The notes beneath the pieces were generated by a model. That model was given only the letters and a program-made list of their open reading frames with translations, had not been told where the DNA came from and did not search any database. A DNA stretch of 64,000 nucleotides, from positions 575 to 64,574 of the forward strand of contig CAYOLW010000003.1 of the NCBI GenBank assembly GCA_964404925.1, given 5' to 3'. Shown in pieces: positions 32,511 through 57,095 of the stretch. Both the position numbers and the translations under genes were made by a program. Source of the DNA: an uncultured Candidatus Saccharibacteria bacterium. Lineage in GTDB: Bacteria > Patescibacteriota > Minisyncoccia > Phycocordibacterales > UBA9973. The first letter of the stretch is position 1; the number at the start of each line of letters is the position of its first letter.

Positions 32511-34289
32511 CTATTCAGTCTCTTTCCAATCGGACAAATTTATCACAGGTACATTAGTAGTAGGTCCAGAAGTAAATGAAACATGTGCTAATCCAGAATC
32601 ATATCTGACCGTAGAATTCCCAGAAACAACCAACCTATAAGCTGTAGCCTCCTGCACATCTGCTCCACCTGAAATATTCATTGTTCCGTTTGGCGCGTAT
32701 AATATTACAGCCCCGGAACCTCCAGAGAGACTAACAGCTGATCCAGAAGAACTAGTAGTTAAAAGCATGATATAACTTTCAGGGTCTCCTGATCCAGTTG
32801 CATCAGATCCACCACCGATAGTTATAGTTCCGTCAGATACAATAACTCCATCAGAAGATCCATAGCTAGAGGAAAGTCTAATCTGACTGCCTCCAGTCAG
32901 GCTAATATTACCAGCTACCCATAAAGTACCAGCTACAGTTAATATTGCACCTCCCCCTACTGTCAGATTACCTGTAATTTTAGTGGGTCCAATAGTTGCA
33001 CTACCACTTGGTAAATTATAATTACCAGCCACTATTCCTCCGGCTTCTGCCTCTGTCTTCCATCCGGTTATTGTTGCATCTGAAATTGGGTAATCTATGT
33101 ATTGTGGATCTGATTGTGAGGTACAAGATTTATTATTTCCTGTACCTGATTGGCAATATATAAGCCCAGTCGCATTAGTATAATTAACAGTATTTGCCTG
33201 AGCTGTTCCTAAGGTTGTACCAACACGTAAAGGATTCCATTGACTACCCGAAGACCCTGCAATACGACCTGTTAACCCTCCTAAATATAACTTAAAGAAA
33301 TAATCATAACCAAGGTTAGCCCAAGGACCGTTAAATTGACCAGTTAGACCAATACCAGCAGAATAAGAAGTCATACCATCATCACTCGCTCCAATCACAT
33401 AGTATCTACTAGCATTGGTTGTAGAAGAATCAATTACCAACCAATAAGGTGTACCTATGCTTAAAATCGGGTTAGAATTAAACGAAACTTCAACCCAACT
33501 ATATGCAGTAGATACAGAAGAAGCAGGTAATGTACCACTAGCATAAATAGTAGTACCTGGAACTCCAGCAGAGTTGTTAACTATCTTAACAGTCAAATTA
33601 CTAGGGGAATTAACTTTTTTTATATAAAATTGGACTTTGCTTAAAGGAGCAGAGGTATTAACCATAAAACCCTGAGCTATGTCTTGTGTGCTATTAGTGT
33701 TACCAAAAGCCCTGTCATAAATCTGGATACCTGTACCATTAGACTGATCTATATAAGAAACAGCACTACTAGCTGAAACAGCTGTTCCTGTAATAGAAGA
33801 GGAGCTGTCTCCAGTTATTGGACCATTAGCATAAACATTACCAACAATAGTACTACTAGTTAAATCAACTCCACCTAAACCAACTTGCACACCATAATAA
33901 AATGGCACATCTACCGACCAACTAAATTGAGTTGCTATCTTTCTTTGATAACTATTAACACTACTTAATGAAACTATATCTATAGGTGTGGTTGGTGTAA
34001 TAATATCTGGTATTATTGTTGTAACTGTATTATCCCCAATTGTAATAACCTCACTAGTGCCTATTGTAATATGATTTTTAAATCGATAGAGAGCATCCTC
34101 ACTACCAGATTCAGCTAAAAAATATGCATCCTTAGAGTCTAAATTCAAACGTCCAGTAGCATAATCACGCACTGTTGGAGAAACTAACCCAGCTATTGTT
34201 GTAAGTGATATAAATAAAAATACAACCACTGATAACATCATTGCTTGACCCCCGTTTGTTTTTATTTTTTTTATTGTGTTTCTTTCCAT
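32511..34289 (-). CDS. PilX-N-like pilus-associated giant protein (paralog 3 of 3), glycine-rich beta-solenoid-like C-terminal region
   Basis: N-terminus NGGQAMMLSVVVFLFISLTTIAGLVSP (PilX_N-type hydrophobic segment, no E5). Shares motif blocks with the next two ORFs: GPITGDSSSSITG.AVSA, AGVPGTT, YWLVID, LWVAGNISL.GG, AVILYAPNGTMNISGGAD, C-terminal W-K-E. Confidence 0.6.
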   Translation of the reverse strand: MERNTIKKIKTNGGQAMMLSVVVFLFISLTTIAGLVSPTVRDYATGRLNLDSKDAYFLAESGSEDALYRFKNHITIGTSEVITIGDNTVTTIIPDIITPTTPIDIVSLSSVNSYQRKIATQFSWSVDVPFYYGVQVGLGGVDLTSSTIVGNVYANGPITGDSSSSITGTAVSASSAVSYIDQSNGTGIQIYDRAFGNTNSTQDIAQGFMVNTSAPLSKVQFYIKKVNSPSNLTVKIVNNSAGVPGTTIYASGTLPASSVSTAYSWVEVSFNSNPILSIGTPYWLVIDSSTTNASRYYVIGASDDGMTSYSAGIGLTGQFNGPWANLGYDYFFKLYLGGLTGRIAGSSGSQWNPLRVGTTLGTAQANTVNYTNATGLIYCQSGTGNNKSCTSQSDPQYIDYPISDATITGWKTEAEAGGIVAGNYNLPSGSATIGPTKITGNLTVGGGAILTVAGTLWVAGNISLTGGSQIRLSSSYGSSDGVIVSDGTITIGGGSDATGSGDPESYIMLLTTSSSGSAVSLSGGSGAVILYAPNGTMNISGGADVQEATAYRLVVSGNSTVRYDSGLAHVSFTSGPTTNVPVINLSDWKETE

Positions 34290-36058
34290 TTTCCTACTGA
34301 AAAACCAGCCTCACTTCCAGAGGCAAAATGCATATCAGCTAAACCAGATTCATAAGTCACATCCGAACCTCCCGATACCACTATGCGCTTTGCGGTACCT
34401 CCTTTCAAATCAGCTCCACCAGAAATATTCAATGTACCTTCTGCTGCATATAATATAACGGCCCCCGAACCCCCAGAAACAGAAGCGGCACTACCGGATG
34501 TGCTTTCACTTAAAAGTAAAAGATAACTACCAGCTTCTCCTGACCCAGTTGCATCAGCACCACCAGAAATACTTATGTTTCCACCCGCAACTGCTACGCC
34601 ATCATCTTCACCATAATCAGCAGAAAGCTTCATTAATGCGCCTCCGGAGATACTTATGTTTCCAGTAACCCACAGCGTACCAGTTACAGTTAGAGTTCCA
34701 CCTCCAGAAATACTTAAATTACCTTCAATTTTTTTAGGGCCCAAAGTTGCACCGGCCCAACCAACAGAGTAATTACCACTATGTATGCCGCCGGCTTCTG
34801 CCTCACTTTTCCAAGCACCGATAGTAGCATCATCTATTGGCATATCAGCATAAGTTGGGTCAGTTCCCGGAGAACAGCTTTTGTTATTACCCGTACCTTC
34901 TTGGCAGTTTAGAGTACCTGTTACGTTTACATAATTTACTGTATGCGCTGCTGCATTACCAGACACAGTACCTATATGTAATTGATTCCATTGACTCTCC
35001 CCTTGGATAGACCCAGCCGCACCACCTGTATAAATTCTAAAGAAATAATCTATTCCCGATGGAGCTGTATCCGTCCAAGCACCAGAATACTGTCCAGTTT
35101 TACCAACACCGCTAGCATAGCCATTAGCATTTCCACCAATCATATAGTATTTGGTATTACTTACACTTGCATCTAGCACCAGCCAATATGTTGTTCCAGC
35201 TGTGAGTGTTGGGCTTGTGCCAAAGCTAACTGTTACCCAAGTATAAGAACTAGACACCGAGACAGCAGTCAGTGTTGTACTAGCAATAGTCGTGGTCCCA
35301 GGAACACCGCTTGAATCATTAACCAAACGGACCGTTATGTTGTTTGGAGTACTTACTTTTTTTAAGTAAAACTGTGCTTGATTTAAAGTAGTATTAGTAG
35401 GTACTGAAAAACTCTCCGCAACATCCTGATTGGCACTAGTCTTACCAAAAATTACATTATAAGTTGGCGTACCTGTTCCGTTAAACTGATTAAGTCCAAA
35501 ATCAGGGCTATTAGCTGAAACAGCTGAACCTGTAATAGAAGAAGAGCTGTCTCCAGTTATTGGACCATTAGCAAATACGCTACCTATTACATTACTTCCT
35601 CCGGTAACATCAAATCCACCTGTTCCGGACTGCAAACTATAATCAAAAGAAGCTGTTGTGCCTTCCTCAAGGGTCAAATCAATTTCTCGGTTAATATTAT
35701 TTTTATCACCAAAAGAACTAATATGCATAACACCATCAATACGCCCAGCATTAGTAGTAACCTCACCATTATTTAAAGCTAGGATTTCTGTCTCATCAAC
35801 CTCTATATTGTTTAGCAATCTATACAAAACATCTTCTGTGCCTGATTCACTTAAATAATAAGTTTGTTTTGATTCTGTATCCAGACTCACAATCTTATAT
35901 CCACGGGCAACTGGCGATACTAAACCAGAAATAACAACCAAGGACAACAAAATAAAAAACAAAACAGAAAACAACATGGCTTGTCCACTGTTTTTAGATA
36001 ATTGATTGTATTTCTTAATGTACATTTTTATATTTCTTTCCACTCTTTTATATCCCAA
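34271..36058 (-). CDS. PilX-N-like pilus-associated giant protein (paralog 2 of 3)
   Basis: KNSGQAMLFSVLFFILLSLVVISGLVSP N-terminus. Same repeat blocks as 32511..34289. Ends ...KWKETQ. Confidence 0.6.
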   Translation of the reverse strand: MGYKRVERNIKMYIKKYNQLSKNSGQAMLFSVLFFILLSLVVISGLVSPVARGYKIVSLDTESKQTYYLSESGTEDVLYRLLNNIEVDETEILALNNGEVTTNAGRIDGVMHISSFGDKNNINREIDLTLEEGTTASFDYSLQSGTGGFDVTGGSNVIGSVFANGPITGDSSSSITGSAVSANSPDFGLNQFNGTGTPTYNVIFGKTSANQDVAESFSVPTNTTLNQAQFYLKKVSTPNNITVRLVNDSSGVPGTTTIASTTLTAVSVSSSYTWVTVSFGTSPTLTAGTTYWLVLDASVSNTKYYMIGGNANGYASGVGKTGQYSGAWTDTAPSGIDYFFRIYTGGAAGSIQGESQWNQLHIGTVSGNAAAHTVNYVNVTGTLNCQEGTGNNKSCSPGTDPTYADMPIDDATIGAWKSEAEAGGIHSGNYSVGWAGATLGPKKIEGNLSISGGGTLTVTGTLWVTGNISISGGALMKLSADYGEDDGVAVAGGNISISGGADATGSGEAGSYLLLLSESTSGSAASVSGGSGAVILYAAEGTLNISGGADLKGGTAKRIVVSGGSDVTYESGLADMHFASGSEAGFSVGKWKETQ

Positions 36059-37407
36059 GTATATAATATTGGTGAAAAAGAAACAGTAGTAGTGGTGGAT
36101 CTACTAGATAATATTGTATTCATACTAGTTAGTGTTGCTTTATAACCAGAAGTTATCCGAGTAAATCCTTCTTCATCGTTCGACTGAACATCTATATGAC
36201 CGTGTGGTGCATAAACTATTAAAGCAGAAGCAGAAGAACCCGTACTAATCAAATCTACAGCATCCATTGCGCCCCCATTTTCCGCATCATTATTCTGCGA
36301 TACTAATACAACAAAAGAGTCAGGTCCAATACCCGTCGAAGCAGAACGCGTATTAATTGAAATCTGACTGCTAGTTGTTCGATTGGTTGGCTTATCAGCT
36401 ATAACCATAACACTGCTGCCAACTGGAATACTAGGACCCACTAACAATCGCGAAGAACCAGTCATATTAATATTACCTTTTACCCAAACAGGACCATTAA
36501 TAGTCACTTGAGCTGTATCCGAAATATTCACAGAATCGCAGTTAATCATAATGGGACCCAAGACTGTATTAGTATTTAGATTGTAAGGACAAACACCTTT
36601 GTAAATTCCACCAGCTAAAGCTGCTTGTTCCATAAATTCTATTGCCGAGTCGGTAATTGGTAATGGATATTCTTGAGTATCTGGTGAGTTATCAAAACAC
36701 CTTGGATTAGGACACAATGCCCCAGAAACAAGAGATGTACCATCAATGCTTTGGTAATAAGCAGAGCCAGCGATGACAGAATTTATTATTGTGTGGGCTA
36801 CCGCATTGTATGAACTATTTATAATTCTTAAATTACTAATAAGTCCACTAGATCCACTAGAAGTGATTCCACCACTATTTACTATATTAGAATTTGAACC
36901 AGTCACTGGGCCTTGTGAAGTAATGGTACCGAATACTGAAGAATTTCCTCCTTGTGCCAACAATCCTCCTTTTCCAAACTGGAGGCCTGACTGGAACACT
37001 ATTCCAAATGGAACTTGAATTTCAAAAACAATCTTTCTATTTCGGTTAGATATATTAGCGGAAGAAATTACATTTATCTGACCATCAACCATTGAGTCAA
37101 TTTCTACATTGGCACTATCATACCCAAGAGATAAATTGTAACTACCAGTATTTATTAAAGGTAAATTTTGTAAAAGACGGTAATAAACATCTTCAACACC
37201 AGATTCAGCCAAATAATAACTACGCCCAGATAGCCAGGAATCTCTAACTATTCGGTAATCACGCACAGTAGGAGAAACAAGCCCAGCCATTGTAGTAAGT
37301 GTTATGAAAATAAAAAGCACCACAGAAAACAACATGGCTTGTCCACTGTTTTTAGATATATTATTTGTTTTTTCTTTCAGCTTATTTATTAAAAAAAAGT
37401 TAGACAT
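36028..37407 (-). CDS. PilX-N-like pilus-associated protein (paralog 1 of 3)
   Basis: KNSGQAMLFSVVLFIFITLTTMAGLVSP N-terminus, encoded by DNA identical to paralog 2 over 36 nt. Ends ...KEWKEI. Confidence 0.6.
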   Translation of the reverse strand: MSNFFLINKLKEKTNNISKNSGQAMLFSVVLFIFITLTTMAGLVSPTVRDYRIVRDSWLSGRSYYLAESGVEDVYYRLLQNLPLINTGSYNLSLGYDSANVEIDSMVDGQINVISSANISNRNRKIVFEIQVPFGIVFQSGLQFGKGGLLAQGGNSSVFGTITSQGPVTGSNSNIVNSGGITSSGSSGLISNLRIINSSYNAVAHTIINSVIAGSAYYQSIDGTSLVSGALCPNPRCFDNSPDTQEYPLPITDSAIEFMEQAALAGGIYKGVCPYNLNTNTVLGPIMINCDSVNISDTAQVTINGPVWVKGNINMTGSSRLLVGPSIPVGSSVMVIADKPTNRTTSSQISINTRSASTGIGPDSFVVLVSQNNDAENGGAMDAVDLISTGSSASALIVYAPHGHIDVQSNDEEGFTRITSGYKATLTSMNTILSSRSTTTTVSFSPILYTWDIKEWKEI

Positions 37408-37904
37408 TAATAACTTCCCCTCAGAACCAAAGTATTGTTAAAGTCCTCGGTACGAGTTGAACCATAACGATTAGACTTAACAGTCATAGTAATCCTAATG
37501 GCTATGCTGTTAGTTGTAGTGATTTGGGTAAAATTAAGAGCTGAAATAGCTAAATTAGTAGAATTTAAATTACCAGTCAACACATCATTTTCACGTAACT
37601 CTAAATTAGTGCCATTTAAAGTAAATGTTATAGTTTTTGGGTTATCACTAGAATCTTCGGTATTTAATTTTAAACTACTTGAGCTAATAGTATTAACACT
37701 ATTAGCTAGTCGTATTTCTCTTGATATACGTTCAAGCACTTGATTAGTTTGATTAATATCAGCAGTAACTTGAGTGTCCCTGAACGCAGAGATCATTGTT
37801 AATGTTGCTCTAACAAGAATTAATGATACAATCGCGAAAAGTGAAATATAAAAAAGCGTTTCTATTAAAGAAAAACCTTTATTTTTTTTATTTAAATTAA
37901 TCAT
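37407..37904 (-). CDS. type IV (pre)pilin
   Basis: Class III signal: MINLNKKNKG|FSLIETLFYISLFAIV (Gly-1, Glu+5). 165 aa. Confidence 0.8.
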   Translation of the reverse strand: MINLNKKNKGFSLIETLFYISLFAIVSLILVRATLTMISAFRDTQVTADINQTNQVLERISREIRLANSVNTISSSSLKLNTEDSSDNPKTITFTLNGTNLELRENDVLTGNLNSTNLAISALNFTQITTTNSIAIRITMTVKSNRYGSTRTEDFNNTLVLRGSY

Positions 37905-38407
37905 TCAAATAAATCAGTTAAATATAATGACAGCGTCTTGGTTTTAATATTACCGCCTTCGGGCCAAGAAACAGACACAGTAACAAGTCTCGTACCAGCA
38001 TCTTCTGTTCCACCAGAAGAAACTATATCACCTGTAGTACTATCGCGATTTACATACGCAAAATTTATTGTTCGAGTAAAAATACCATTTGAAGTGGCTT
38101 CATTTTTATCAGTTGTGTATAACCACTCTGTTCCATTAAATTTTAAATAATGAGTAGTCCCTACTGTAGCATCGGATAATGTTGTCCAATTTTTATCTCT
38201 AATAACTCTAACAACTTCAGCTCCTTCTTCTAAAAGAAAAGAGGCTTGTGCGTAGTGAGTGGACTGTCTAGCAACAAAAACAGATTTATTGGCGACAGCC
38301 ATAGCCGATAAAACAGCAATAGTAACAATAGTCACAGCCACTAGAATTTCTATAGAAAGAGAGCCTTTTTTATTTTTTAAAAAAAAATTCATTATTTTAA
38401 TTAACAC
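37901..38407 (-). CDS. type IV (pre)pilin / minor pilin
   Basis: ...KNKKG|SLSIEILVAVTIVTIAVL (Gly-1, Glu+5). 168 aa. Confidence 0.75.
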   Translation of the reverse strand: MLIKIMNFFLKNKKGSLSIEILVAVTIVTIAVLSAMAVANKSVFVARQSTHYAQASFLLEEGAEVVRVIRDKNWTTLSDATVGTTHYLKFNGTEWLYTTDKNEATSNGIFTRTINFAYVNRDSTTGDIVSSGGTEDAGTRLVTVSVSWPEGGNIKTKTLSLYLTDLFE

Positions 38408-38891
38408 TAATTATCCCAGTGGCACCTATTGTTATTGTTTTAGTTGCGTTTGGTACAGCCACAGTTATTGTACCAGTCTTGTTGGGCACACCAGTCAGCC
38501 TAGAAAAATACACGTCATTACCTCCACCAGATAAACTTATATTTGAAATATATGCAGGTAAAGCAATATTTATAGTTTCATCAGTACCAGATGGATAACT
38601 AGAGCCTTTAAATATTATAAGGGCATTGGTACTAAAATGCACGCCATAAGTCGAAGAATCTATTGAAGCAAGTGTTTGAGAGTTTGCTTTTTTTAATACA
38701 GAAATTATTTCAGTAGTTGCTGATTGAAGAGATTGACGATTGCGTAAGGTAGAAAAACTTGTCAAAACGACGGCCAGTATAACTAACAAAATTACTACAG
38801 CAACAAGAATCTCAATTAGAGAGACACCCTGTAGTTTTGACTTATTAATCATGGTCAAATTATAACTTGATTTAACTTTTTTACCAAGCAA
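38397..38891 (-). CDS. type IV (pre)pilin
   Basis: ...KSKLQG|VSLIEILVAVVILLVILAVV (Gly-1, Glu+5). 164 aa. Confidence 0.8.
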   Translation of the reverse strand: MLGKKVKSSYNLTMINKSKLQGVSLIEILVAVVILLVILAVVLTSFSTLRNRQSLQSATTEIISVLKKANSQTLASIDSSTYGVHFSTNALIIFKGSSYPSGTDETINIALPAYISNISLSGGGNDVYFSRLTGVPNKTGTITVAVPNATKTITIGATGIISVN

Positions 38892-40109
38892 TTAAATACT
38901 GTCTAGAACACTGTAAAGTGGTGTAATCATTGAGATAGCAAAAAAACCAACAGCTGCACCAATAAAAACCATGAGTATTGGTTCAATGACAGTCGATAGA
39001 TTTTTTGTTTTGTTTTCTATTTCAGTTTCATAATATGTAGCTATTTGAACAAGCATCTCAGATAATTTACCTGTTTCTTCACCAACTTGAATCATTTCAG
39101 ACATCATTATCGGGTACAGTTTAACATTTTCTTCAAAAACTTTAGAAAAAGGTGCACCTTTTTCTACCTGGTCACGAGATTCAGTAAGGACCCTTTTATA
39201 GTATATATTTTGTACCACGTCTCGGGTTATTTCTATAGCTCTAGTGATAGCCACACCTGATACTAAAAGCGAGGCTAATGTTCGGGCTGTTCGAGCGGTA
39301 TTTAATTCTTTAGCAATATTGCCAACTATAGGGATTCTAATAACGATATAATCTAAATAAGGCTTCATGAATGAAGCACGCAATAAAAAAACGACACTTA
39401 CGATTAAAAAAACAACAACCCCAAATGCCAGAATTGGACTCTGTGAAACAAAATTAGCTATATTGATTACAAATTGAGTTGAAGCGGGTAATTTGGCATT
39501 AAGTTCATCGAAGGTTTTAGCTAAAGTTGGTACAACAAAAATAAACATAAGGACACCAATAATCAACATAGCAGACATAATAACACCAGGATAAATCAAT
39601 GCTCCTTTTACTTTTTTTGTTAGAGCATTTGCCTTGTCTAAATTTTGACCAACTTCATTTAGAGACTCAGCCAAATTACCAGATTCCTCCCCTGCTCTAG
39701 CCATGGATATAAACAAAGGTGAAAAAACTTTTGGATATTTAGCAAGACCAGATGATAGAGTGCCTCCAGCATTTATTTCAGCCGACAAAGAAACTAATAT
39801 GTCATTTAACTTTTTATTTTTTGTTTGTTTTTGAAGAACAGAGAGGGCCCGAGACAAAGACAGTCCAGCCTTGATCATCCCACTTAAGTTCTTGGTCATA
39901 AGAACCAAATCTCCTGTTTTTACACTACCGAATATATTACCAAAGTTAGCCAAAAACTTATCCATACCTGCCTTGTGTTTTATTTCTATAGAAATAGGAA
40001 TATTACCACGAGAATGGAGTTCTCTGGAAACAGAAAATTTATCAAGTGATTCGATCTCGCCTGAAATTATTTCCCCTGTTTTTAGTTTTGCTTTATATGT
40101 AAATAACAT
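38892..40109 (-). CDS. pilC: type IV pilus platform protein PilC (GspF family)
   Basis: 405 aa, two T2SSF-type repeats with 3 TM segments. Directly downstream of the PilB ATPase. Confidence 0.85.
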   Translation of the reverse strand: MLFTYKAKLKTGEIISGEIESLDKFSVSRELHSRGNIPISIEIKHKAGMDKFLANFGNIFGSVKTGDLVLMTKNLSGMIKAGLSLSRALSVLQKQTKNKKLNDILVSLSAEINAGGTLSSGLAKYPKVFSPLFISMARAGEESGNLAESLNEVGQNLDKANALTKKVKGALIYPGVIMSAMLIIGVLMFIFVVPTLAKTFDELNAKLPASTQFVINIANFVSQSPILAFGVVVFLIVSVVFLLRASFMKPYLDYIVIRIPIVGNIAKELNTARTARTLASLLVSGVAITRAIEITRDVVQNIYYKRVLTESRDQVEKGAPFSKVFEENVKLYPIMMSEMIQVGEETGKLSEMLVQIATYYETEIENKTKNLSTVIEPILMVFIGAAVGFFAISMITPLYSVLDSI

Positions 40110-40118
40110 TTTATTCTT

Positions 40119-41867
40119 TTATTCTGAAACAACTCTGAATACTTCCTCTATAGTAGTATTACCTAAAACACATTGAAATATACCATCCTCAATCATAGTC
40201 ATCATTCCTTCTTTTTTAGCTTGCACTTCTATATCATCCTGAGAAGCACCTTTACTGATAAGTTCACGAATAGTCGTGCTGACTTTTAACACTTCATGAA
40301 TACCAACACGACTATGATAACCATCTTCTGATTCATCATTCTTTACTGCTTTAAAGAAAGGAACTTTTTCCCAAGTAGTTTTTTCATCAATAAGTTTTTC
40401 TTTTTTCAAAAAAGACATCATACGGTCTAAATCTACTAGTTTGCTCAGATTTTTTATCTCAGCTGGAGATAAAAAATACTGTTCTTTAATTTTTGTTAAT
40501 CGACGAACCAATCGCTGCGCAATAATCGTCTTTACAGTCGAAACAATCAAAAAAGGTAGTACACCCATATCTATCATTCTAGGTATTGCGCCTGCAGCAG
40601 AATTAGTGTGGATAGTGGACAAAACTAAGTGTCCAGTCAAAGATGCATTCACTGCTAAACTAGCCGTCTCTGTGTCTCGTATTTCACCAACCATGATTAT
40701 GTCGGGATCTTGACGTAGTAGACTACGCAGACCATTAGCAAAAGTTAATCCAATTTCAGGCTTTACTTGAGTTTGATTGACGCGTGGCATTTGATATTCA
40801 ACAGGGTCTTCAACTGTTGAAATATTTACGTCTGGTTTATTAAGGATCTCAAGCATAGTATATAAAGTCGTAGTTTTACCACTACCAGTAGGTCCAGTTG
40901 CCAAAATCATTCCTGTTTTTTGTCGCATGGATTCATATATCCTTTCTAGACCTTCACCATGAAAACCAAGCCCTTCAAGTGAAAAACCTCCCCCTCCCTC
41001 ATGCAAAATACGCATTACGGTCTTCTCTCCAAAAAAGGTTGGCAACGTTGAAACACGGAATGAAACCTTATCACCGTTTTGATCAATTTTGAAACGACCA
41101 TCTTGTGGTAAACGCTTCTCATCAAGTTTAAGGTTAGAAAGTACTTTAATACGGGCAGTAATACCTGAGGAAGCAGATTTATCTAGTATCATTGCTTCAT
41201 GTAACAAACCATCAATACGGTATCTAACAATTAGATCATGTTCTCCCGGTTCAATGTGAATGTCAGAAGCATTTTGCAAAATTGCGTGAAAAATAAGAGA
41301 ATCAACTATTTTGACCACCGGCAAATCTTCAGCCATTTTTTTTAACTCTTCTTCAGATTTTTCTCCCACATCCTCTTTTGAGATAGATAGCGATGCAACT
41401 TCTTTTTGTATTAAATTATCGAATTCTGCCTGTAGGCTACGCTTGTATTGCAAAAGGGAAGATTTTATTGAAGCAACATCAGTTAACCTTGGTAATATCC
41501 TAAGCTCAGATTTCTTTTTCACGAAATCTATAACAGACAAATTATCAACGTCGAGCATTGCAACTTCTAGTCCTTTGTCACTTTTTTTATAAGCAATAAT
41601 ATTGTATTTACGAGCTAATGGTTCCGGAATTAGAGACAGTATATTGAAATCAATTTTTTCGTTTACTAAGCTAACATATGGAATACCCAACACAAAAGCC
41701 TCCATTCTTTTTAAATCGTTTTCAGAAATTTTACCTTCAGACAAAAGAAGGTCAGTGAACTTTTCTTTTTTCTCGGCAGCTTTTTTACCAAGCTGGTCTA
41801 AAACATCACCATTTACCAAACCAGCATCGAGTATATATTTTTTTAGTTGTTCTTCGTTAACTTGCAC
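40119..41867 (-). CDS. pilB: type IV pilus assembly ATPase PilB (GspE family)
   Basis: N-terminal GSPII_E_N-like domain, Walker A GPTGSGKTTTLY, Asp box, Walker B/His box (VGEIRD...), no tetracysteine at the end. 582 aa. Confidence 0.9.
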   Translation of the reverse strand: MQVNEEQLKKYILDAGLVNGDVLDQLGKKAAEKKEKFTDLLLSEGKISENDLKRMEAFVLGIPYVSLVNEKIDFNILSLIPEPLARKYNIIAYKKSDKGLEVAMLDVDNLSVIDFVKKKSELRILPRLTDVASIKSSLLQYKRSLQAEFDNLIQKEVASLSISKEDVGEKSEEELKKMAEDLPVVKIVDSLIFHAILQNASDIHIEPGEHDLIVRYRIDGLLHEAMILDKSASSGITARIKVLSNLKLDEKRLPQDGRFKIDQNGDKVSFRVSTLPTFFGEKTVMRILHEGGGGFSLEGLGFHGEGLERIYESMRQKTGMILATGPTGSGKTTTLYTMLEILNKPDVNISTVEDPVEYQMPRVNQTQVKPEIGLTFANGLRSLLRQDPDIIMVGEIRDTETASLAVNASLTGHLVLSTIHTNSAAGAIPRMIDMGVLPFLIVSTVKTIIAQRLVRRLTKIKEQYFLSPAEIKNLSKLVDLDRMMSFLKKEKLIDEKTTWEKVPFFKAVKNDESEDGYHSRVGIHEVLKVSTTIRELISKGASQDDIEVQAKKEGMMTMIEDGIFQCVLGNTTIEEVFRVVSE

Positions 41868-41904
41868 ATAGTAATTATAACAAAATAATACACACTCTCA
41901 AAAC

Positions 41905-41951: not shown

Positions 41952-44399
41952 TTATTGCCACTGACCTGTTAAGTCTGCATGCACTGATGGATTGGCTGCA
42001 TCAACAACTGTAGTTCCAGTAGGAAGTGGTAAATTAAACTTAAATGCACCTGGGTCAGCGGATAAGTTACCAAAAACATAGAATATGTCAGTTCCGGTAT
42101 AAGGCGTACTTTCATTACTGTAACCAGTAGCACCAGTAGATACAATCTTGAATACAGGAAGAACGTTTTGAGGGCTTTGAATTGTTATCGGTTTACTGAA
42201 GTTCACAGTGACTATCATTGATTTAGGGAAATTACCACTATCCCAAACCTTAGTAATTGATAAAACCTTTGGTGCATCAGCATTTTGCACAGTTACAAAA
42301 ACACTGTTTAATGTAAATTGCCCAACCGTGTTAGTGCAACTTAGTTGAAAAATTGTATCCTGTGTTAAGTTATTTATAACAATAGAACCACTTGCAACCT
42401 TCTGCCCCGTCCAAGTAGAAACAGGTGAGCTAGTAGCAGTACAAGGGTTTGAGCCGTTCATATTAGTAGTACTCCAAGTTAATGTAGTGCTACCATTCGT
42501 AACCGGATTAGGGTCTGCAGATAGTGTAATTACTGGATCTGGACCTTGTTGGACTGTTACAATTACAGATTCTGAGATTGAACCTCCTGGACCACTGCAA
42601 TCTATGCTAAATGTTGTATCTGAAGTTAGTGCAGCTTGCGTGTCCCAATTACCACTTGCTGGTCTAGAATAACCTGTAGTTGCCCATCCAGATGAACCAC
42701 CGGTAGATTTACAAGCAGTTACATTTGTAGTTATCCACGTTATTTTTGTTGTACCGTTTGCGTTAGTACTTGAAGTAAGCGACAATGTTGGTTTTATACT
42801 TACAACCACAGAATCAGAAACCATAATACCGTTTGCATTTGTACAATTAATAGTGAAGGTTGTTTGAACATTTAAACCATTAATTGTAGCTGAACCAGCG
42901 GCAACTTCGTGTGCAGTATTCCAAGAAGCTTTGTTTGGCGAACTAGTTCCGAAGCAAGTACTAACATTATTGTTAGTCCAGTACAAACTAAAACTTTCTC
43001 CAGCATCTATAGATAGAGTGTCCACACCCTCTGCTTTTAAATCAACCTCTGACATAATATTTGGAATTGCTACTCCACCATTCTGAAGTGTGTAAATAGC
43101 AATTTTTTTTAGCCCAGGTTCTACTGCTTTTATCCATGCAGCTTCATCAAAACTATGATCATTTTCATCTTCTATAAATACTCCCCATGGATCTGTACCG
43201 TAAAATCCAATGACCTCTGTAGGCCTAAACGTTCCAGTATTTATTTCATTAGAAATTTGTGTAGTAGAAAAATCCTTCGTATTTGGTGTAATGGTAGAAT
43301 TGCTTACCACATAACGCCAAGCGTAATCTTGAGAATAATATTTATTACCTATAATTTCAATTGTACCAATCCAGGCACCTGCCGTTACACCATTATCCCC
43401 TACAGCCAGGGCTAAATTATAATCTTGCGGCAAAGTAAACTTAGTACATTTTTTGTAGTTTTTCCAAGTTGGAATACCATATATTGCTACATTCATGTTT
43501 TTGCAGATAGGTTGTAAATCTGCCACCTTACCATTAGCACCAATTTTATAAGAATATAAAGTAAATACAGCATCAGCAGAAATTTTAAACTCAAAAGGAT
43601 ATCCTGAAAGTGGAATACTCGCATTTGGATTGTTGTAATTAGTCGTTATAGTATTTGACTGCCACCAAGGAGTTGTAGTTGTAGCTAAAATGTTATTGCC
43701 ATTAAGGTAGTAAACAGGCGAAGAAGTAGCAGCTCCAGTGTTAGTAAAATTTTGTGTAAGGTTCTGAGTAAGACCTGAGGTTAGTTGTGATGTGTTTTGT
43801 CCAAAGCTTAAATTCTGACTTTGTGTACTAATGTTTATAGATGAATTTGTGTTTATAGAATTATTAACCAACTGACTGGCGCCTGTTGAATTAACATCGA
43901 TACCAGTATTAGTACTCTGAGTTTGGTTAGTGCTAGACAAAGCTAGTATTGTTGGTTTACTTGCTACGGTCAAAACACTATTTAAGACTTGTTGAGCTGT
44001 TGGATTTAAAGAAGCCTTCCTTAAATTCTGATTTTGGGTTTGATATAAGGAACGCAAATAGGTAAGCGTTTTATTATTTGCAGTACTCAACTTAATACCT
44101 GGATAAATGTTCATGAATTTGAACGTATGTGGTCCAGCAGAACCATCGGGGACCAAACCAGCAAGTTTCTGATAAGCAATAACTGCAGATTTAGTTCCAG
44201 GTCCAAATTTACCATCAACTTTTTTATTATAAAGACCTTGGTTTACTAGATAAGCTTGAAGTGCAGATACTGCTGGACCAAAACTACCAACCTTTAAAAA
44301 CTTTACCCCGGAGTCATTATTCAAAAAAGATGAATCTGTAGCTGCACTGGCAGATATTGAGAGCAAAGAAATAATTAAAATAAAAAGATATTTTTTCAT
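41952..44399 (-). CDS. secreted protein: signal peptide + peptidoglycan-binding domain (PG_binding_1-like) + S/T/N/Q-rich linker + three tandem ~70-aa Cys-pair Ig-like repeats
   Basis: MKKYLFILIISLLSISASA. PGBD: LKVGSFGPAVSALQAYLVNQGLY..DGKFGPGTKSAVIAYQKLAGLVPDG. Ig-like repeats LYWTNNN..C...INCTN, KITWITTNVTAC...IDCSG, TLTWSTTN..C...LSCTN. Confidence 0.6.
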   Translation of the reverse strand: MKKYLFILIISLLSISASAATDSSFLNNDSGVKFLKVGSFGPAVSALQAYLVNQGLYNKKVDGKFGPGTKSAVIAYQKLAGLVPDGSAGPHTFKFMNIYPGIKLSTANNKTLTYLRSLYQTQNQNLRKASLNPTAQQVLNSVLTVASKPTILALSSTNQTQSTNTGIDVNSTGASQLVNNSINTNSSINISTQSQNLSFGQNTSQLTSGLTQNLTQNFTNTGAATSSPVYYLNGNNILATTTTPWWQSNTITTNYNNPNASIPLSGYPFEFKISADAVFTLYSYKIGANGKVADLQPICKNMNVAIYGIPTWKNYKKCTKFTLPQDYNLALAVGDNGVTAGAWIGTIEIIGNKYYSQDYAWRYVVSNSTITPNTKDFSTTQISNEINTGTFRPTEVIGFYGTDPWGVFIEDENDHSFDEAAWIKAVEPGLKKIAIYTLQNGGVAIPNIMSEVDLKAEGVDTLSIDAGESFSLYWTNNNVSTCFGTSSPNKASWNTAHEVAAGSATINGLNVQTTFTINCTNANGIMVSDSVVVSIKPTLSLTSSTNANGTTKITWITTNVTACKSTGGSSGWATTGYSRPASGNWDTQAALTSDTTFSIDCSGPGGSISESVIVTVQQGPDPVITLSADPNPVTNGSTTLTWSTTNMNGSNPCTATSSPVSTWTGQKVASGSIVINNLTQDTIFQLSCTNTVGQFTLNSVFVTVQNADAPKVLSITKVWDSGNFPKSMIVTVNFSKPITIQSPQNVLPVFKIVSTGATGYSNESTPYTGTDIFYVFGNLSADPGAFKFNLPLPTGTTVVDAANPSVHADLTGQWQ

Positions 44400-44426
44400 T
44401 GTCTAATGATTAATGCTAATAATAAA

Positions 44427-47400
44427 TTAGTGAGTATGCTGGTATAAAGAATTAATAGCAGCTATATCAATAGAACTTGGGTGCAAATTGTCTAATGTAC
44501 CAAAATTCGTATTTGGGTGACTTGGAAAACTATGAGTACCTCCGCCTGGAGCTCTTGAATAATCAGAACATGTGCCAAGGTTCATATTATAGTTATTTAC
44601 ATCTGCATGACCCATACCGATCGAGTGTCCTAATTCATGACACACTAAAAACTGTATATAATCTGGGGTGTTTAAATTAAGTTCGTCCATTTTCTTTTTA
44701 TTAAAACCAACTTCTGTTTGGTATTGATGTCCGCCACTTGCTGGATACCACCAAGCTGCACCTATCCATTGAGCTGGGCTTACACCATCGTCATCCTTAA
44801 AATCATCTCTATAATGTATAGGTACAGTATAACCTGGCCCACCTAAAGATATTTTTAACTTGCGCGCAAGGTTCCAGTCCTTCTTAGTTTGAATCAAATA
44901 TTCTTCCCAAGAAGCAGGTACACTCACGTTTTGCCAATTTACTAGAACTGGTTTACCTGAACCTGGCACATGATCTATAACTGGTTGTTGATGGTTTGTA
45001 CCAGGAGATAAAATACCGCCTTCACAGCTTCCACCGGTATCTACTGAATCTTCATTGCCATTTTTTATACCGTCACTACAAGTACCGTCTGATACAGGAG
45101 GTGTGCCACTACCCCCTCCCCCATTAGAGTTTTCTGAATCATCACTTGATGATGAACATCCAGGATCTACTGGGTAGTCTGTTTTTCCATCAGCATCGTT
45201 ATCTATTCCATCTGAACACTGTTTAGGAAGGATTATTCCACCAGGATTTACACCAGTCGATCCATTAACACTTTTTACTGTACCATCTGGACCGATTACA
45301 CCAATAAATCCATTACCGTAAGAAGGCATAGTACATTTTGGTAGGTTCGGATCATTTAATTTAGACCAGTCAAAAGAATAGTATTTCTTGCCATCAGGAG
45401 ACAAAGTAAATATTTTGTCTTTATTTAGAATCTCTAATGATAAATTTATATTTTCATCAATAAGAACGGACGGTATTGCGTTAGCAGGTATACCATCATT
45501 GTCCTTTTGTACATAAGAGAAATAAAGTCCGCTTTTTCCAGCTCCATCTAAAATTTTCATAGTTGGGTATGGCCCAGCTATATTAGGAATTTGATATTTT
45601 AAAGTAGGAGTGACATCCTTTACCCAAAATATTTTGTCTGTGCCTATTATTACCCTAACACTAGAAAGTGTAGGTGAAACTTTTGTACTTGTAATTCTTT
45701 TACAATAAACCTGACCGATGTCAGAGGCCGTGCCTACACCACCATCAGTTGGAGTTAGCGCTTGTGAAGCTTGAGCTACTTGAGATGATCCTACTTGGGC
45801 TAATGATTGAAACGCACTACTCAGTGTATCACTGAAACTATTGTTACTTGTACTAGTAACAGATGCGGATTCTGGCATGGTATGTGTATGCACAACAAAT
45901 GATCTTGGTTTTCCACGTGAATCCGTACCATAATTCTTGACATACCATTGGCTTGTAGGTGAATCTATAACCGCCTGACCCCAAGTTTTTGGCTTATTTA
46001 TATCGAACTGTTTTTTAATTACAGTTGTAATAAAACTTTGATTTTCTTGCTCATAAGCAGTATTTCGAATGTTAATAACATTATTCAATAAAGAAACATT
46101 GCTTGATTTCTTGTCTAATTCTTTCTGCAAAGCTTCGAAAGTTGCCCGGCCAATAACTCCATCTGGGGTTAGATTTTTATCTTTCTGGAAATCAATGATT
46201 TCATTTTTTGTTTGAGTGCCGAATACACCATCAGCTGAAACAGCATAATTGAGTGTAACTAAAGCCTTTTGTACTTCTTTTACTAAGCTACGATCTGTTT
46301 CTTGTGGTTTTATTACACCTAAATATTTGTTGGAATCTTCTTCGTTGAATGAAAGACCGTTAGGGCAAAGTGCTCCTGTGGCTTTAGCCGTCTTCAAATT
46401 CACAACCTTACCTTCCAGGCAAACTTCATCACTCAATGTAGCTGCAATTTGACTTTGATTATTAGAACTAGCACCCCCACAAGCATTTGTTCTATTCCAC
46501 CAGGACTGATCTGTTACGCTTGTGTTACCGTTCTCATCAACATACACAGACGGGCAATTCCCTACTTGCGTAGTGCCACCAGCACGAGCAGCTAATACAC
46601 CTTCTAAATCAAGAGTACCTGAATCTATTTGTGCAACCTCATCTAAGCTAAGTAAATAACATTGGTTCACTCCGTCTTTTACGCCACACACATATTTAGT
46701 ATTAACTGTACTAATAGGAGAACTAAAATTAGTGTTAAAATTAGACCCATTGGTTCCAGACTGAGCACCTGAAGCGGCAACGTTATATATACCCACATTT
46801 GAAAAGACTGAAAAATTAGATTTTGGTTTGGATGTTATTTTTTTAGCAGCAGTTGAGGTGTCTAGCACCAAACCAGACTGTGGTTTGAGTGCCCGGGTTA
46901 ACACATTTTTTGGTAGAGATGGTATAGATATTTTATTTGTACTACCAGAAACATTGTTAGTATTAGTACCTGTTGTAACCACAGCCTCTCCCTTAGACAA
47001 AGATTCAATGTAACTCATTGTCCTTGGCCCAGCTACACCGTCGGCTGTTAACTGTCCATTAGTTGTAGACTGAAATGCCTTCACAGCTTCCTTGGTTTTT
47101 GGACCATATACACCATCAATAGATCCATTATAAATTCTCTGGTTGTATAAGAAAGCTTGCAGGAGTACAACTTCTTGTTTAGCTACCGCCCCTGGTTTTA
47201 ATACAGAGTCAGTACTAACAGATGTATTCTGATCAGAAATTTCTGTATTGATTTTTATCTTTGGGACCACCACCTTTTGCACAGTAGAAGCAGTTGTTAA
47301 TTGAGCTGTTTCTGTTGAATGTGCACCCACTATATACGGTGCCAAAACCAACACAAGGACGACAATAAAAATTAAATATCTTTGCATGGATTGATAATAA

Positions 47401-47438
47401 ATGTTTAATAATAATACTTTACAGGTATTATACCCCAC
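44427..47438 (-). CDS. secreted multi-domain protein: 2x peptidoglycan-binding domain + Asp-rich Cys-bracketed (TSP3/calcium-binding-like) repeats + C-terminal metzincin zinc protease domain
   Basis: PGBDs (LLQAFLYNQRIY.GSIDGVYGPKTKEAVKAFQ; VQKALVTLNYAVSADGVFGTQTKNEIIDFQ). CSDGIDNDADGKTDYPVDPGC and GTCSDGIKNGNEDSVDTGGSC. HELGHSIGMGH = HExxHxxGxxH. True start probably at 47387 (MQRYLIFIVV signal peptide). Confidence 0.65.
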   Translation of the reverse strand: MGYNTCKVLLLNIYYQSMQRYLIFIVVLVLVLAPYIVGAHSTETAQLTTASTVQKVVVPKIKINTEISDQNTSVSTDSVLKPGAVAKQEVVLLQAFLYNQRIYNGSIDGVYGPKTKEAVKAFQSTTNGQLTADGVAGPRTMSYIESLSKGEAVVTTGTNTNNVSGSTNKISIPSLPKNVLTRALKPQSGLVLDTSTAAKKITSKPKSNFSVFSNVGIYNVAASGAQSGTNGSNFNTNFSSPISTVNTKYVCGVKDGVNQCYLLSLDEVAQIDSGTLDLEGVLAARAGGTTQVGNCPSVYVDENGNTSVTDQSWWNRTNACGGASSNNQSQIAATLSDEVCLEGKVVNLKTAKATGALCPNGLSFNEEDSNKYLGVIKPQETDRSLVKEVQKALVTLNYAVSADGVFGTQTKNEIIDFQKDKNLTPDGVIGRATFEALQKELDKKSSNVSLLNNVINIRNTAYEQENQSFITTVIKKQFDINKPKTWGQAVIDSPTSQWYVKNYGTDSRGKPRSFVVHTHTMPESASVTSTSNNSFSDTLSSAFQSLAQVGSSQVAQASQALTPTDGGVGTASDIGQVYCKRITSTKVSPTLSSVRVIIGTDKIFWVKDVTPTLKYQIPNIAGPYPTMKILDGAGKSGLYFSYVQKDNDGIPANAIPSVLIDENINLSLEILNKDKIFTLSPDGKKYYSFDWSKLNDPNLPKCTMPSYGNGFIGVIGPDGTVKSVNGSTGVNPGGIILPKQCSDGIDNDADGKTDYPVDPGCSSSSDDSENSNGGGGSGTPPVSDGTCSDGIKNGNEDSVDTGGSCEGGILSPGTNHQQPVIDHVPGSGKPVLVNWQNVSVPASWEEYLIQTKKDWNLARKLKISLGGPGYTVPIHYRDDFKDDDGVSPAQWIGAAWWYPASGGHQYQTEVGFNKKKMDELNLNTPDYIQFLVCHELGHSIGMGHADVNNYNMNLGTCSDYSRAPGGGTHSFPSHPNTNFGTLDNLHPSSIDIAAINSLYQHTH

Positions 47439-47505
47439 TACCCAAAGAAAAACACCCTGAGGAGAGTCCAGAGTGTTTCCTTGTGTGTCCTTATATATTT
47501 ATATT

Positions 47506-50337: not shown

Positions 50338-50386
50338 TAATAATTAATACTAATATATCAAATTCACCCACAATAAAAATCTACCT

Positions 50387-50860: not shown

Positions 50861-50891
50861 TACTACCTACAACTCTCTAAGAGTTTTTAAA

Positions 50892-53258: not shown

Positions 53259-53290
53259 ATAACTTGTAAATAATTAATAATACCTAAAAA

Positions 53291-54640: not shown

Positions 54641-54705
54641 TGAATAATTATACTCTCTATTATTTTAATAATAAATACAAAACTGCTTTATTGTTGATTA
54701 TACCC

Positions 54706-55776: not shown

Positions 55777-55781
55777 AAAAT

Positions 55782-57068: not shown

Positions 57069-57095
57069 ATTTTTATTAAAAATACATTCTATTTA

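What the first reader, a model, noticed from the sequence alone, without database searches (positions are those of the whole stretch)
32511..41867. Secretin-less type IV pilus operon ending in three tandem giant PilX-N-like proteins with beta-solenoid-like repeats (candidate pilus-tip adhesins)
Gene order on the minus strand is pilB - pilC - three prepilins (all with Gly-1/Glu+5 class-III signals) - three paralogous 459/595/592-aa proteins. The three paralogs have an N-terminal hydrophobic PilX_N-like segment (..SGQAMLFSV..LVSP, no Glu+5). Their C-terminal regions share ordered blocks GPITGDSSSSITGSAVSA, AGVPGTT, YWLV(L/I)D, LWV(A/T)GNIS(L/I)(T/S)GG, AVILYA(P/A)(N/E)GT(M/L)NISGGAD, and a conserved C-terminal W-K-E tail. 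The glycine-rich x-G-N-I-S-x-S-G-G periodicity suggests a parallel beta-helix or solenoid, as in adhesins. No pilM/N/O/Q, pilD or pilT are in the operon, consistent with a monoderm/CPR architecture. Triplication of a large minor-pilin-like component is unusual and fits diversified host-attachment tips for an episymbiont.
Basis: partly seen in the sequence, partly recalled or inferred. Interest (0 to 1): 0.6.

Follow-up and report, generated by a model that had tools for sequence, protein, structure and literature searches.

The report
Modular pilus-tip proteins in a Patescibacterium
A tiny uncultivated bacterium's pilus operon ends in three large proteins that look like pilus-cap subunits carrying a beta-solenoid and, in two of them, a sugar-binding-like module; the type has precedents (Thermus ComZ, Saccharibacteria PilX), so this is a new variant, not a new kind.

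Summary
On the minus strand lie pilB, pilC, three small prepilins (Gly-1/Glu+5) and three paralogous large ORFs (459, 584-595 and 592 aa).

The large proteins have a basic leader, an invariant Gly, then a hydrophobic helix with no Glu+5, as in GspK/PilX. AlphaFold models (pLDDT 82-83) show a ~59-residue N-terminal helix, a small beta-sheet and a run of short strands. For both models the only full-length PDB match is Thermus ComZ, a GspK-like competence pilin with an inserted beta-solenoid.

It scores above threshold for NCBIfam choice-of-anchor R and resembles CBMs and phage tail proteins.

The order pilB-pilC-3 prepilins-Z-tpiA-pgk-recJ-rnhA-comEC recurs in most of about 80 Paceibacteria-type loci. 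Among 63 loci with both flanks, 55 have one large gene and 4 have the triplet. The short paralog belongs to a separate, older subfamily.

The wider family has over 4,700 50%-identity clusters. Other members carry LVIVD, LamG or DUF4082 inserts at the same site.

Best reading: alternative cap minor pilins of a type IV pilus. The ligand (glycan or DNA) is untested. New variant of a known kind.

The parts
41874..41901 (-). Best promoter-like site (TTGAGA-16-TATAAT with extended -10 TG) in the gap just upstream of pilB. Likely operon start.
   Evidence: 11 of 12 matches, the top site in the region. The total number of such sites is not above chance, so this is suggestive only.
40119..41867 (-). 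pilB, the extension ATPase (MshEN N-domain plus T2SSE)
   Evidence: T2SSE E 2.9e-120, MshEN E 5.9e-9. TIGR02538 PilB E 2.8e-153 (511 bits, below the 675-bit equivalog cut-off); GspE 499 bits.
38892..40109 (-). pilC, the platform protein (two T2SSF domains)
   Evidence: T2SSF E 1.3e-54, two stretches. GspF E 1.1e-90, PilC E 3e-80, both below the equivalog cut-offs.
38397..38891 (-). Prepilin 1 (164 aa, G|VSLIE). GspH/FimU/ComGE-like by weak HMM hits; a major-pilin role is not excluded.
   Evidence: N_methyl 22.4 bits (cut-off 21.2). ComGE 6.4e-8, GspH 7.5e-6, GspG 2.9e-4, all below cut-offs; the profile matches only the N-terminal helix of major pilins and GspG (best E 3e-9).
37901..38407 (-). 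Prepilin 2 (168 aa, G|SLSIE). PilV/GspI-like.
   Evidence: TIGR02523 PilV 1.4e-6, GspI 2.8e-4, both below cut-offs; weak N-terminal pilin matches.
37407..37904 (-). Prepilin 3 (165 aa, G|FSLIE). ComGF-like (GspJ position).
   Evidence: N_methyl 26.4 bits. ComGF 3.5e-5, below cut-off. N-terminal pilin matches.
36028..37407 (-). Zs459: short large minor pilin (leader + Gly, no Glu+5; helix, pilin sheet, solenoid). No central insert. Distinct deep subfamily.
   Evidence: model pLDDT 81.7, pTM 0.69, helix 21-79. ComZ 6QVI_A is the only near-significant PDB hit (E 1.4e-3, prob 1.00, 540 columns, TM 0.33); about 30% identity to the long forms, 33-38% to short or LVIVD forms elsewhere; profile family of 4,712 clusters.
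34271..36025 (-). Zl595: long large minor pilin (584 aa from the ATG at 36025; the ORF extends to a TTG at 36058). Same scaffold plus a central choice-of-anchor R beta-sandwich (about aa 189-335 of the 584-aa form).
   Evidence: NF041539 40.4 bits (cut-off 30); pLDDT 83.4, helix 13-71. ComZ E 1.7e-4 across the full length; central domain vs phage 812 baseplate chain E 1.9e-7, plus CBMs; 43 viral hits at E<=1e-3.
32511..34289 (-). Zl592: second long paralog with the same architecture. Slightly closer to the single-copy proteins of other genomes.
   Evidence: NF041539 36.5 bits; weak DUF7305 (18.4 bits, cut-off 27) over aa 445-568; 54-58% identity to single-copy long forms, 52.7% to Zl595.

Best explanation
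The operon encodes the motor (PilB), the platform (PilC) and a four-part minor-pilin set of a secretin-less type IV filament in a Paceibacteria-type Patescibacterium. The three small prepilins take the GspH/I/J (FimU/PilV/PilW) roles. The large proteins take the GspK/PilX/ComZ role, as the subunit that enters first and ends up capping the filament tip.

Each large protein is a modular pilin. It has a class-III-like leader ending in Gly, a hydrophobic helix without Glu+5, a small pilin sheet, and a bulky beta-solenoid too large to sit in the filament shaft. The two long paralogs have a lectin/CBM-like beta-sandwich (choice-of-anchor R) nested inside the solenoid region.

Only one cap fits per filament, so the three genes would give three alternative tips. 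I think the most likely job of the tip module is binding a conserved surface polymer, a glycan on a partner cell or substrate. Capture of DNA, as by ComZ, is the main alternative.

Shown: gene content, paralogy, N-terminal features, domain composition, synteny and copy-number distribution. Inferred: tip location, one cap per filament, the ligand, and processing by a prepilin peptidase.
For: - Machinery and prepilins are identified by HMMs and by direct reading.
- The Z proteins have an invariant Gly after a Lys-rich leader (101 of 101 untruncated homologues). Position +5 is I/V/F, Pro sits at about +24, and the motif E-S-G-x-E-D-x-x-Y-R is invariant.
- Both AF2 models show a ~59-residue N-terminal helix, a 4-strand sheet and many short strands.
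- The two models independently pick ComZ (6QVI) as the best full-length PDB match (E 1.7e-4 and 1.4e-3). Ice-binding-protein solenoids appear among weaker hits. ComZ is a GspK-like tip pilin with an inserted IBP-like solenoid, encoded after pilA1-pilA2-pilA3 (PMC6561018).
- Tip complexes of four minor pilins are general to type IV filaments (PMC12153270).
- The central domain passes the NCBIfam threshold. It resembles CBMs, gingipain adhesin domains and many phage tail proteins.
- Other family members carry LamG/ConA-like, LVIVD, DUF4082 or lectin-like inserts. In the profile matches, the break between matched stretches falls in the same scaffold region, roughly profile positions 105-180.
- Large accessory-domain 'PilX' pilins with non-canonical signals are candidate tip adhesins in Saccharibacteria, and pilX2 deletion lowers host binding (PMC11623550).
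- The Z proteins are acidic (pI 4.5-5.1), which mildly disfavours DNA as ligand.
Against: - There is no sequence-level match to ComZ or to any PDB chain.
- Foldseek TM-scores to ComZ are low (0.19-0.33).
- No PilX_N hit for the window proteins.
- Neither a major pilin nor PilD is in the window, so assembly into a filament is assumed. Prepilin 1 could itself be the major pilin, which would leave only three minor pilins.
- The pilin sheet, which presumably contacts the partner pilins, is only 22% identical between the two long paralogs although they must share the same partners.
- The ligand-binding regions are highly conserved across species. That is not what host-specific adhesins usually show.
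Confidence: 0.65

Rival explanations
1. The operon is a DNA-uptake (competence-type) filament and the Z proteins are ComZ-like tip DNA receptors. They would feed DNA to ComEC for nucleotide salvage or transformation.
For: - ComZ is the only full-length solved match for both models, and ComZ binds DNA at the tip (PMC6561018).
- The operon has an ATPase, a platform and pilins but no PilT or PilMNO, like comG operons.
- recJ, rnhA and comEC lie 2-5 kb downstream on the same strand, in most of about 80 loci.
- The solenoid and central domains are highly conserved, which fits a universal ligand.
Against: - The Z proteins are acidic (net charge -7 to -22).
- The glycolytic genes tpiA and pgk, and an opposite-strand HIT gene, separate the operon from recJ-comEC, so the linkage may be inherited gene order only.
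- In more distant lineages the cassette is not near comEC (L087).
- PilB and PilC score far better as T4aP/T2SS types than as ComGA/ComGB.
- The inserted modules across the family are lectin-like, not nucleic-acid-binding folds.
Confidence: 0.22
2. The Z proteins are not filament subunits. They are membrane-anchored surface adhesins or enzymes (beta-helix glycan binders or lyases, like tapirins or pectate-lyase-fold proteins) that are merely co-transcribed with the pilus genes.
For: - No Glu+5 and no PilX_N hit.
- Beta-helix enzymes and adhesins (putative pectinase, RbmB lyase, IgA1 protease, tapirin, tailspikes) appear among weak fold hits.
- L052 has an unrelated beta-helix-like secreted protein right after its Z gene.
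Against: - Those fold hits are insignificant (E>1, probability <=0.06), whereas ComZ scores probability 0.99-1.00.
- The invariant Gly after a basic leader, the ~59-residue helix and the pilin-type sheet are pilin hallmarks.
- Z always follows three prepilins, even where pilBC are absent.
- Some family members do reach PilX_N.
Confidence: 0.08
3. The system is a short pseudopilus, like a type II secretion system. It would push the adjacent peptidoglycan-binding proteins and proteases through the cell wall, with Z as the GspK-like cap that contacts the cargo.
For: - PilB and PilC score nearly as well as GspE and GspF.
- The gene order resembles gspE-F-(G/H)-I-J-K.
- A 17-kb array of secreted PG_binding_1 proteins and metalloprotease-like proteins lies directly upstream and is also present in L004.
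Against: - No secretin, GspC, GspL or GspM in the window.
- The upstream neighbours differ in other relatives.
- A lectin-like module on the cap fits external binding better than cargo pushing.
Confidence: 0.05

Closest known systems
ComZ of Thermus thermophilus (PDB 6QVI; PMC6561018)
   Same: - A large (~550 aa) minor pilin not recognised by standard pilin predictors.
- A GspK-like pilin domain plus a big beta-solenoid.
- Encoded directly after three small prepilins.
- Argued to sit at the tip because it is too bulky for the shaft.
- It is the best and only full-length PDB fold match for both models here.
   Different: - No detectable sequence similarity and low TM-scores.
- ComZ has no nested beta-sandwich module.
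- ComZ is single copy, in a diderm with a secretin.
- ComZ has a shown DNA-binding role; the proteins here are acidic and untested.
PilX1 and PilX2 of Nanosynbacter lyticus TM7x (Saccharibacteria; PMC11623550)
   Same: - Patescibacterial type IV pilus loci.
- The largest pilin of the locus carries an accessory lectin-like module (beta-jelly-roll or beta-propeller).
- No canonical PilD signal is predicted.
- Proposed as a tip adhesin; pilX2 deletion lowers host binding.
   Different: - The paper does not mention a beta-solenoid or beta-helix (0 text occurrences), and it describes the modules as C-terminal additions.
- A different class of Patescibacteria.
- Homology to the present family was not tested here, although a Saccharimonadales locus (L079) does carry a Z homologue.
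GspK / PilX core minor pilins (T2SS GspHIJK; T4aP FimU-PilVWX)
   Same: - Last and largest gene of a four-pilin cassette.
- A leader ending in Gly but no Glu+5.
- Expected to cap the filament and prime assembly.
   Different: - GspK carries an alpha-helical insert, not a solenoid plus beta-sandwich.
- No family HMM (PilX_N, GspK) hits the window proteins.
Modular pilins PilB (vWA module) and PilC (lectin module) of Streptococcus sanguinis (PMC8179133, PMC9934059)
   Same: - A monoderm-type type IV pilus.
- A pilin scaffold grafted with a binding module.
- A glycan-binding complex of minor pilins (PMC9934059, per its title). Its tip location and the lectin nature of the PilC module are from my own knowledge of that work.
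   Different: Different modules and no solenoid. Those pilins keep canonical class III signals (from my own knowledge).

Membership tests
Type IV pilin (class III signal peptide protein) | Short basic leader ending in Gly, followed by a ~20-residue hydrophobic segment | tested here: met
   All three Z proteins read K/N-x-G|QAM(L/M)(F/L)SV... The Gly is present in 101 of 101 untruncated homologues and is >=90% conserved in the short-form alignments.
Type IV pilin (class III signal peptide protein) | Glu at position +5 of the mature protein | tested here: not met
   position +5 is F/L in the window proteins and I/V elsewhere in the family. GspK/PilX-class minor pilins also lack it (established knowledge). 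The three small prepilins do have Glu+5.
Type IV pilin (class III signal peptide protein) | Long N-terminal alpha-helix packed on an antiparallel beta-sheet | tested here: met
   Predicted helices 13-71 and 21-79, each followed by four strands, at pLDDT mostly 75-90. This is a prediction, not an experimental structure.
Type IV pilin (class III signal peptide protein) | Cleavage and N-methylation by a prepilin peptidase, and incorporation into a filament | not testable with these tools
   No PilD gene in the window. Needs proteomics or N-terminal sequencing.
Pfam PilX_N (PF14341) | HMM match above the gathering threshold | tested here: not met
   no hit at E<=1 for any of the three; 2 of 55 family representatives hit at E<=0.01 (best 8.9e-6), so the link is transitive only.
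GspK/PilX-position core minor pilin | Last and largest gene of a conserved cassette after three smaller prepilins | tested here: met
   The order prepilin1-2-3-Z holds in most of about 80 loci, including a standalone cassette (L087).
GspK/PilX-position core minor pilin | Forms a tip or priming complex with the I- and J-type pilins | not testable with these tools
   No multimer prediction was available. Needs AF3 co-folding or pull-downs.
ComZ-like solenoid pilin | Fold similarity to 6QVI over the whole chain | tested here: inconclusive
ComZ-like solenoid pilin | Sequence homology to ComZ | tested here: not met
   Profiles of the long and short forms find no PDB chain at E<=1 and E<=10 respectively.
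ComZ-like solenoid pilin | Solenoid inserted into the pilin sheet (the chain returns to the pilin domain) | not testable with these tools
   Model coordinates could not be inspected. The family-wide C-terminal W-x-E strand would be compatible with such a return.
ComZ-like solenoid pilin | Binds DNA and is required for natural transformation | not testable with these tools
   Indirect evidence only: an acidic pI and a conserved position near comEC.
NCBIfam choice-of-anchor R domain (NF041539) | HMM score above the curated cut-off of 30 bits | tested here: met
   40.4 bits (595-aa form, aa 201-327) and 36.5 bits (592-aa form, aa 192-318). No hit in the 459-aa paralog. Several homologues carry this name at NCBI.
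Pfam DUF7305 (PF23981) | HMM match above the gathering threshold of 27 bits | tested here: not met
   18.4 bits for the 592-aa protein only (aa 445-568); 4 of 55 representatives at E<=0.01 (best 1.4e-6).
Type IVa pilus machinery | PilB and PilC together with PilD, PilT, PilM/N/O (and PilQ in diderms) | tested here: not met
   Only PilB and PilC are present in the 64-kb window. The rest of the genome was not available.

The most novel reading that the evidence does not exclude
Paceibacteria-type Patescibacteria use a ComZ-class solenoid cap pilin as a swappable receptor platform. A single insertion site in the solenoid accepts different lectin-like modules (choice-of-anchor R, LamG, LVIVD propeller, DUF4082), some sharing a fold with phage tail receptor-binding domains. 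In this clade, three caps from two ancient subfamilies are kept in tandem, so one pilus machine can display alternative tips: one for DNA capture feeding the nearby ComEC, and others for binding the partner's cell-wall glycans.
Probability: 0.15. Interest if true: 0.7.

Novelty: new variant of a known kind. Interest (0 to 1): 0.45.

Why it matters
Most Patescibacteria are uncultivated and thought to live attached to other cells. How they recognise partners or scavenge DNA is largely unknown outside a few Saccharibacteria.

This work gives a large 'hypothetical protein' family (over 4,700 clusters at 50% identity) a concrete, testable role: the cap subunit of the pilus, with a defined site where binding modules are exchanged. 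It also links the family structurally to the one solved solenoid pilin, ComZ.

The family offers candidate markers for predicting host or substrate range in Paceibacteria. It also gives clear constructs for binding assays, namely the soluble central domain and the solenoid without the N-terminal helix. It does not reveal a new type of machine.

Tried and rejected
- **PDB sequence-profile searches.** Long-form and short-form profiles found nothing.
- **Typing the three small prepilins as H/I/J through PDB profile searches.** Only N-terminal helix matches came back. The H/I/J labels therefore rest on sub-threshold NCBIfam hits and gene order.
- **Naming the source organism.** Exact look-ups of the window's proteins gave no record name.
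- **Possible major pilin in L086.** I checked the extra ORF between pilB and pilC and the ORF upstream of pilB. Neither is pilin-like.
- **L052 as a fifth triplet.** Its large gap holds one Z plus an unrelated 893-aa secreted protein.
- **Recent in-situ triplication, with the short copy as a deletion derivative.** Rejected on scaffold-only identities.
- **Literature on DUF7305.** No paper in the library mentions it.
- **ComZ together with CPR, Patescibacteria or Parcubacteria.** None of the ten papers listed mentions ComZ. The full set of matching papers was not inspected.
- **Charge of the small prepilins as a hint for ComGD/ComGF-like DNA binding.** Their apparent basicity seems, on a manual count, to come mostly from Lys residues in the cleaved leader, so I dropped this line.


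Full report
**1. What is in the sequence**

Window 32511-41867 holds eight co-directional, tightly packed ORFs on the minus strand.

- ORF 40119-41867 is a PilB/GspE-type ATPase: T2SSE E 2.9e-120, an N-terminal MshEN domain, and TIGR02538 E 2.8e-153.
- ORF 38892-40109 is a PilC/GspF platform protein with two T2SSF domains.
- Three ORFs of 164-168 aa follow. Their leaders end in Gly and their mature N-termini read VSLIE, SLSIE and FSLIE, which are classic class III signals with Glu+5.
- These three hit GspH/ComGE, PilV/GspI and ComGF models respectively. All hits are below the curated cut-offs.
- PDB profile searches match only their N-terminal helices.
- The best promoter-like site in the region lies in the gap just upstream of pilB.
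- No pilD, pilT, pilM/N/O/Q or other pilin-like ORF occurs anywhere in the 64 kb.

**2. The three large proteins**

They are genuine paralogs. The 592- and 595-aa proteins are 53% identical, and the 459-aa protein is 33% identical to the 592-aa one. The 459-aa protein lacks a central block of about 145 aa. The 595-aa ORF most likely starts at the ATG at 36025, giving 584 aa.

An alignment of 117 homologues shows the following N-terminal features:

- a Lys-rich leader;
- a Gly present in every untruncated sequence (101 of 101);
- then A/Q-A-M and about 20 hydrophobic residues;
- no Glu at +5 (I/V/F instead);
- a conserved Pro near +24;
- an invariant E-S-G-x-E-D-x-x-Y-R motif.

This is the GspK/PilX pattern. 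Even so, Pfam PilX_N does not hit the window proteins at E<=1.

NCBIfam's choice-of-anchor R domain (NF041539) hits both long paralogs above its cut-off, at 40.4 and 36.5 bits against 30.

**3. Predicted structure**

The AF2 model of the long form has pLDDT 83.4. It shows a helix at 13-71, four antiparallel strands at 79-121, then short strands, a compact beta-sandwich at about 189-335, a helix at 399-411, and a long run of 3-5-residue strands to the C-terminus. The short form (pLDDT 81.7, pTM 0.69) has the same layout without the sandwich.

Foldseek against the PDB gave these results:

- Long form: the only full-length match is ComZ of Thermus thermophilus (6QVI, E 1.7e-4, probability 0.99, about 690 columns). 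The strongest local matches, about 180 columns on the central domain, are a phage 812 baseplate chain (E 1.9e-7), a PBCV-1 capsid protein, a mycobacteriophage central fibre, CBMs, PHR domains and gingipain adhesin domains. Ice-binding-protein solenoids appear lower down.
- Short form: ComZ is the sole hit near significance (E 1.4e-3, probability 1.00, TM 0.33). The next hit has E 0.7.

Against viral models, 43 hits at E<=1e-3 are mostly matches of about 150-220 columns, a length that fits the central domain. Where named, they are phage tail, minor-tail or virion proteins, and one is a CenC-like carbohydrate-binding protein.

**4. What ComZ is**

According to PMC6561018, ComZ is a competence-associated pilin. 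Its GspK-like pilin domain carries a ~380-residue beta-solenoid resembling the ice-binding protein FfIBP. It is not recognised by PilFind and is encoded next to pilA1-pilA2-pilA3. It binds the GspI-like PilA2 and binds DNA. The authors argue on steric grounds that it caps the pilus.

The gene order here, three prepilins followed by a large solenoid pilin, is the same.

**5. Comparative genomics**

The long form has hundreds of full-length homologues at about 50% identity in Nomurabacteria/Paceibacterota/Patescibacteria MAGs. They are mostly unnamed. Some are called 'choice-of-anchor R domain-containing protein', and one JGI record is called 'Tfp pilus assembly protein PilX'.

A scan of species-representative genomes gave 80 loci. 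A tblastn map shows the order pilB-pilC-prepilin1-2-3-Z-tpiA-pgk-recJ-rnhA-comEC in most of them.

Copy number among the 63 loci that keep both prepilin 3 and tpiA:

| Arrangement | Loci |
|---|---|
| Triplet (short-long-long, same order as the window) | 4 (L004, L005, L006, L037) |

Other points on family structure:

- Each long paralog has 1:1 orthologues in the triplet genomes. On scaffold columns the two long forms are 52.7% identical to each other and 49-58% identical to single-copy long forms.
- The short paralog is about 30% identical to all long forms, and 33-38% identical to short or LVIVD-bearing forms of other lineages. The 'triplication' is therefore one long-form duplication plus a member of an older subfamily.
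- In another Nomurabacterium the same syntenic slot holds a single short Z (L086).
- In a more distant genome, three prepilins plus a 773-aa Z with LVIVD repeats form a standalone cassette with no pilBC nearby (L087).

**6. Size and modularity of the family**

A profile of the short form finds 4,712 clusters (50% identity representatives) at E<=1e-3, and 1,000 at E<=1e-30. Most top hits are 415-460 aa. Others are 583-781 aa and match in two stretches, mostly separated near profile positions 160-180.

Among 55 representatives scanned against Pfam:

- 2 reach PilX_N (best E 8.9e-6) and 4 reach DUF7305 (best E 1.4e-6);
- other domains found, probably the inserts, include LVIVD repeats (3 members), Laminin_G_3/ConA-like (E 5.4e-27), DUF4082 (2 members) and a lectin-like domain.

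The C-terminal W-x-E and the ExGxEDxxYR motif are conserved across all of these.

**7. Conservation pattern and charge**

Within the long-form family the pilin sheet (aa 72-126) is the most variable part, with mean entropy 1.87. The solenoid and central domain are the most conserved, at 0.85-1.07. A Cys pair at positions 374 and 384 is invariant. This does not look like a rapidly diversifying receptor-binding surface. It fits a common ligand better.

The Z proteins are acidic, with pI 4.5-5.1. Only the central domain is near neutral to basic.

**8. Interpretation**

Best reading (confidence about 0.65): the Z proteins are the GspK/PilX/ComZ-position cap subunits of a type IV filament. The three small prepilins would form the rest of the four-member tip complex that is general to type IV filaments (PMC12153270). 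The solenoid with its nested lectin-like module would be the ligand-binding head.

The concept already exists for Patescibacteria. In TM7x, PilX1 (beta-jelly-roll module) and PilX2 (beta-propeller module) lack canonical signals, and pilX2 deletion lowers host binding (PMC11623550).

I favour a glycan or surface polymer as the ligand for three reasons: the folds of the inserted modules, the resemblance to phage tail proteins, and the acidic charge. A ComZ-like DNA-receptor role remains a serious rival (about 0.22). It is supported by the fold match, the comG-like operon composition and the conserved proximity to recJ-rnhA-comEC. Non-pilin surface adhesin and pseudopilus-secretion readings are less likely.

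**9. Uncertainties**

- No major pilin or PilD is in view, and prepilin 1 might be the major pilin.
- Tip location, one cap per filament, and the ligand are all inferred.
- The ComZ relation rests on predicted structures with modest global scores.

**10. Verdict**

This is a new variant of a known kind, the modular tip minor pilin. It is notable for the ComZ-like solenoid in Patescibacteria, the nested exchangeable lectin-like module, and the clade-specific tandem set of three caps.

Noticed in passing
window 41952-58778 (minus strand): Directly upstream of pilB lies a ~17-kb array of nine mostly large ORFs, several with signal-peptide-like N-termini by eye. Five carry an N-terminal PG_binding_1 domain (41952-44399, 44427-47438, 47506-50337, 50892-53258, 54706-55776). 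One of these also has a Peptidase_M57-like HExxH C-terminus, and 55782-57068 has reprolysin/matrixin-like metalloprotease hits. A close relative (L004) has the same PG_binding_1 giants upstream of pilB; other relatives do not. This may be a cell-wall-targeting arsenal.
   Followed up: partly
window 26748-28082 and 21632-22495 (minus strand): comEC appears split. The DUF4131 + Competence part is one ORF. A separate 287-aa ORF about 4 kb downstream contains a DIGQGDAIFIE stretch that I recognise from my own knowledge as the ComEC metallo-beta-lactamase motif; it was not scanned here. Relatives have a separate Lactamase_B gene in the same neighbourhood.
   Followed up: no
Z family, C-terminus (window 32514-32522, 34274-34282, 36031-36042): A C-terminal W-K-E (W-x-E) motif is conserved in more than 90% of 55 family representatives that are only 26-36% identical to the 459-aa query. 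Its role is unknown. It may be a strand returning to the pilin domain, or a sorting or assembly signal.
   Followed up: no
L052 6978-9659: In one relative, an unrelated 893-aa secreted protein sits between the single Z gene and tpiA. By eye its sequence looks like right-handed beta-helix repeats; no domain search was run.
   Followed up: no
L064, L065, L047, L059 (between prepilin 3 and tpiA): Four relatives have a 2.5-2.7 kb interval instead of 1.8 kb. In L064 and L065 the extra sequence gives partial Z-like and second prepilin-3-like tblastn hits. These may be remnant or additional minor pilin genes.
   Followed up: no
L087 16497-19196: A DnaB helicase gene in a distant relative carries an intein with a LAGLIDADG endonuclease domain (Pfam list). 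Unrelated to the finding.
   Followed up: no
loci list: Many MAGs labelled 'uncultured Candidatus Saccharibacteria bacterium', one 'Burkholderiales' (L075) and one 'Sphingobacteriales' (L062) carry this Paceibacteria-type locus with full synteny. This suggests mislabelled or contaminated bins in the public records.
   Followed up: no
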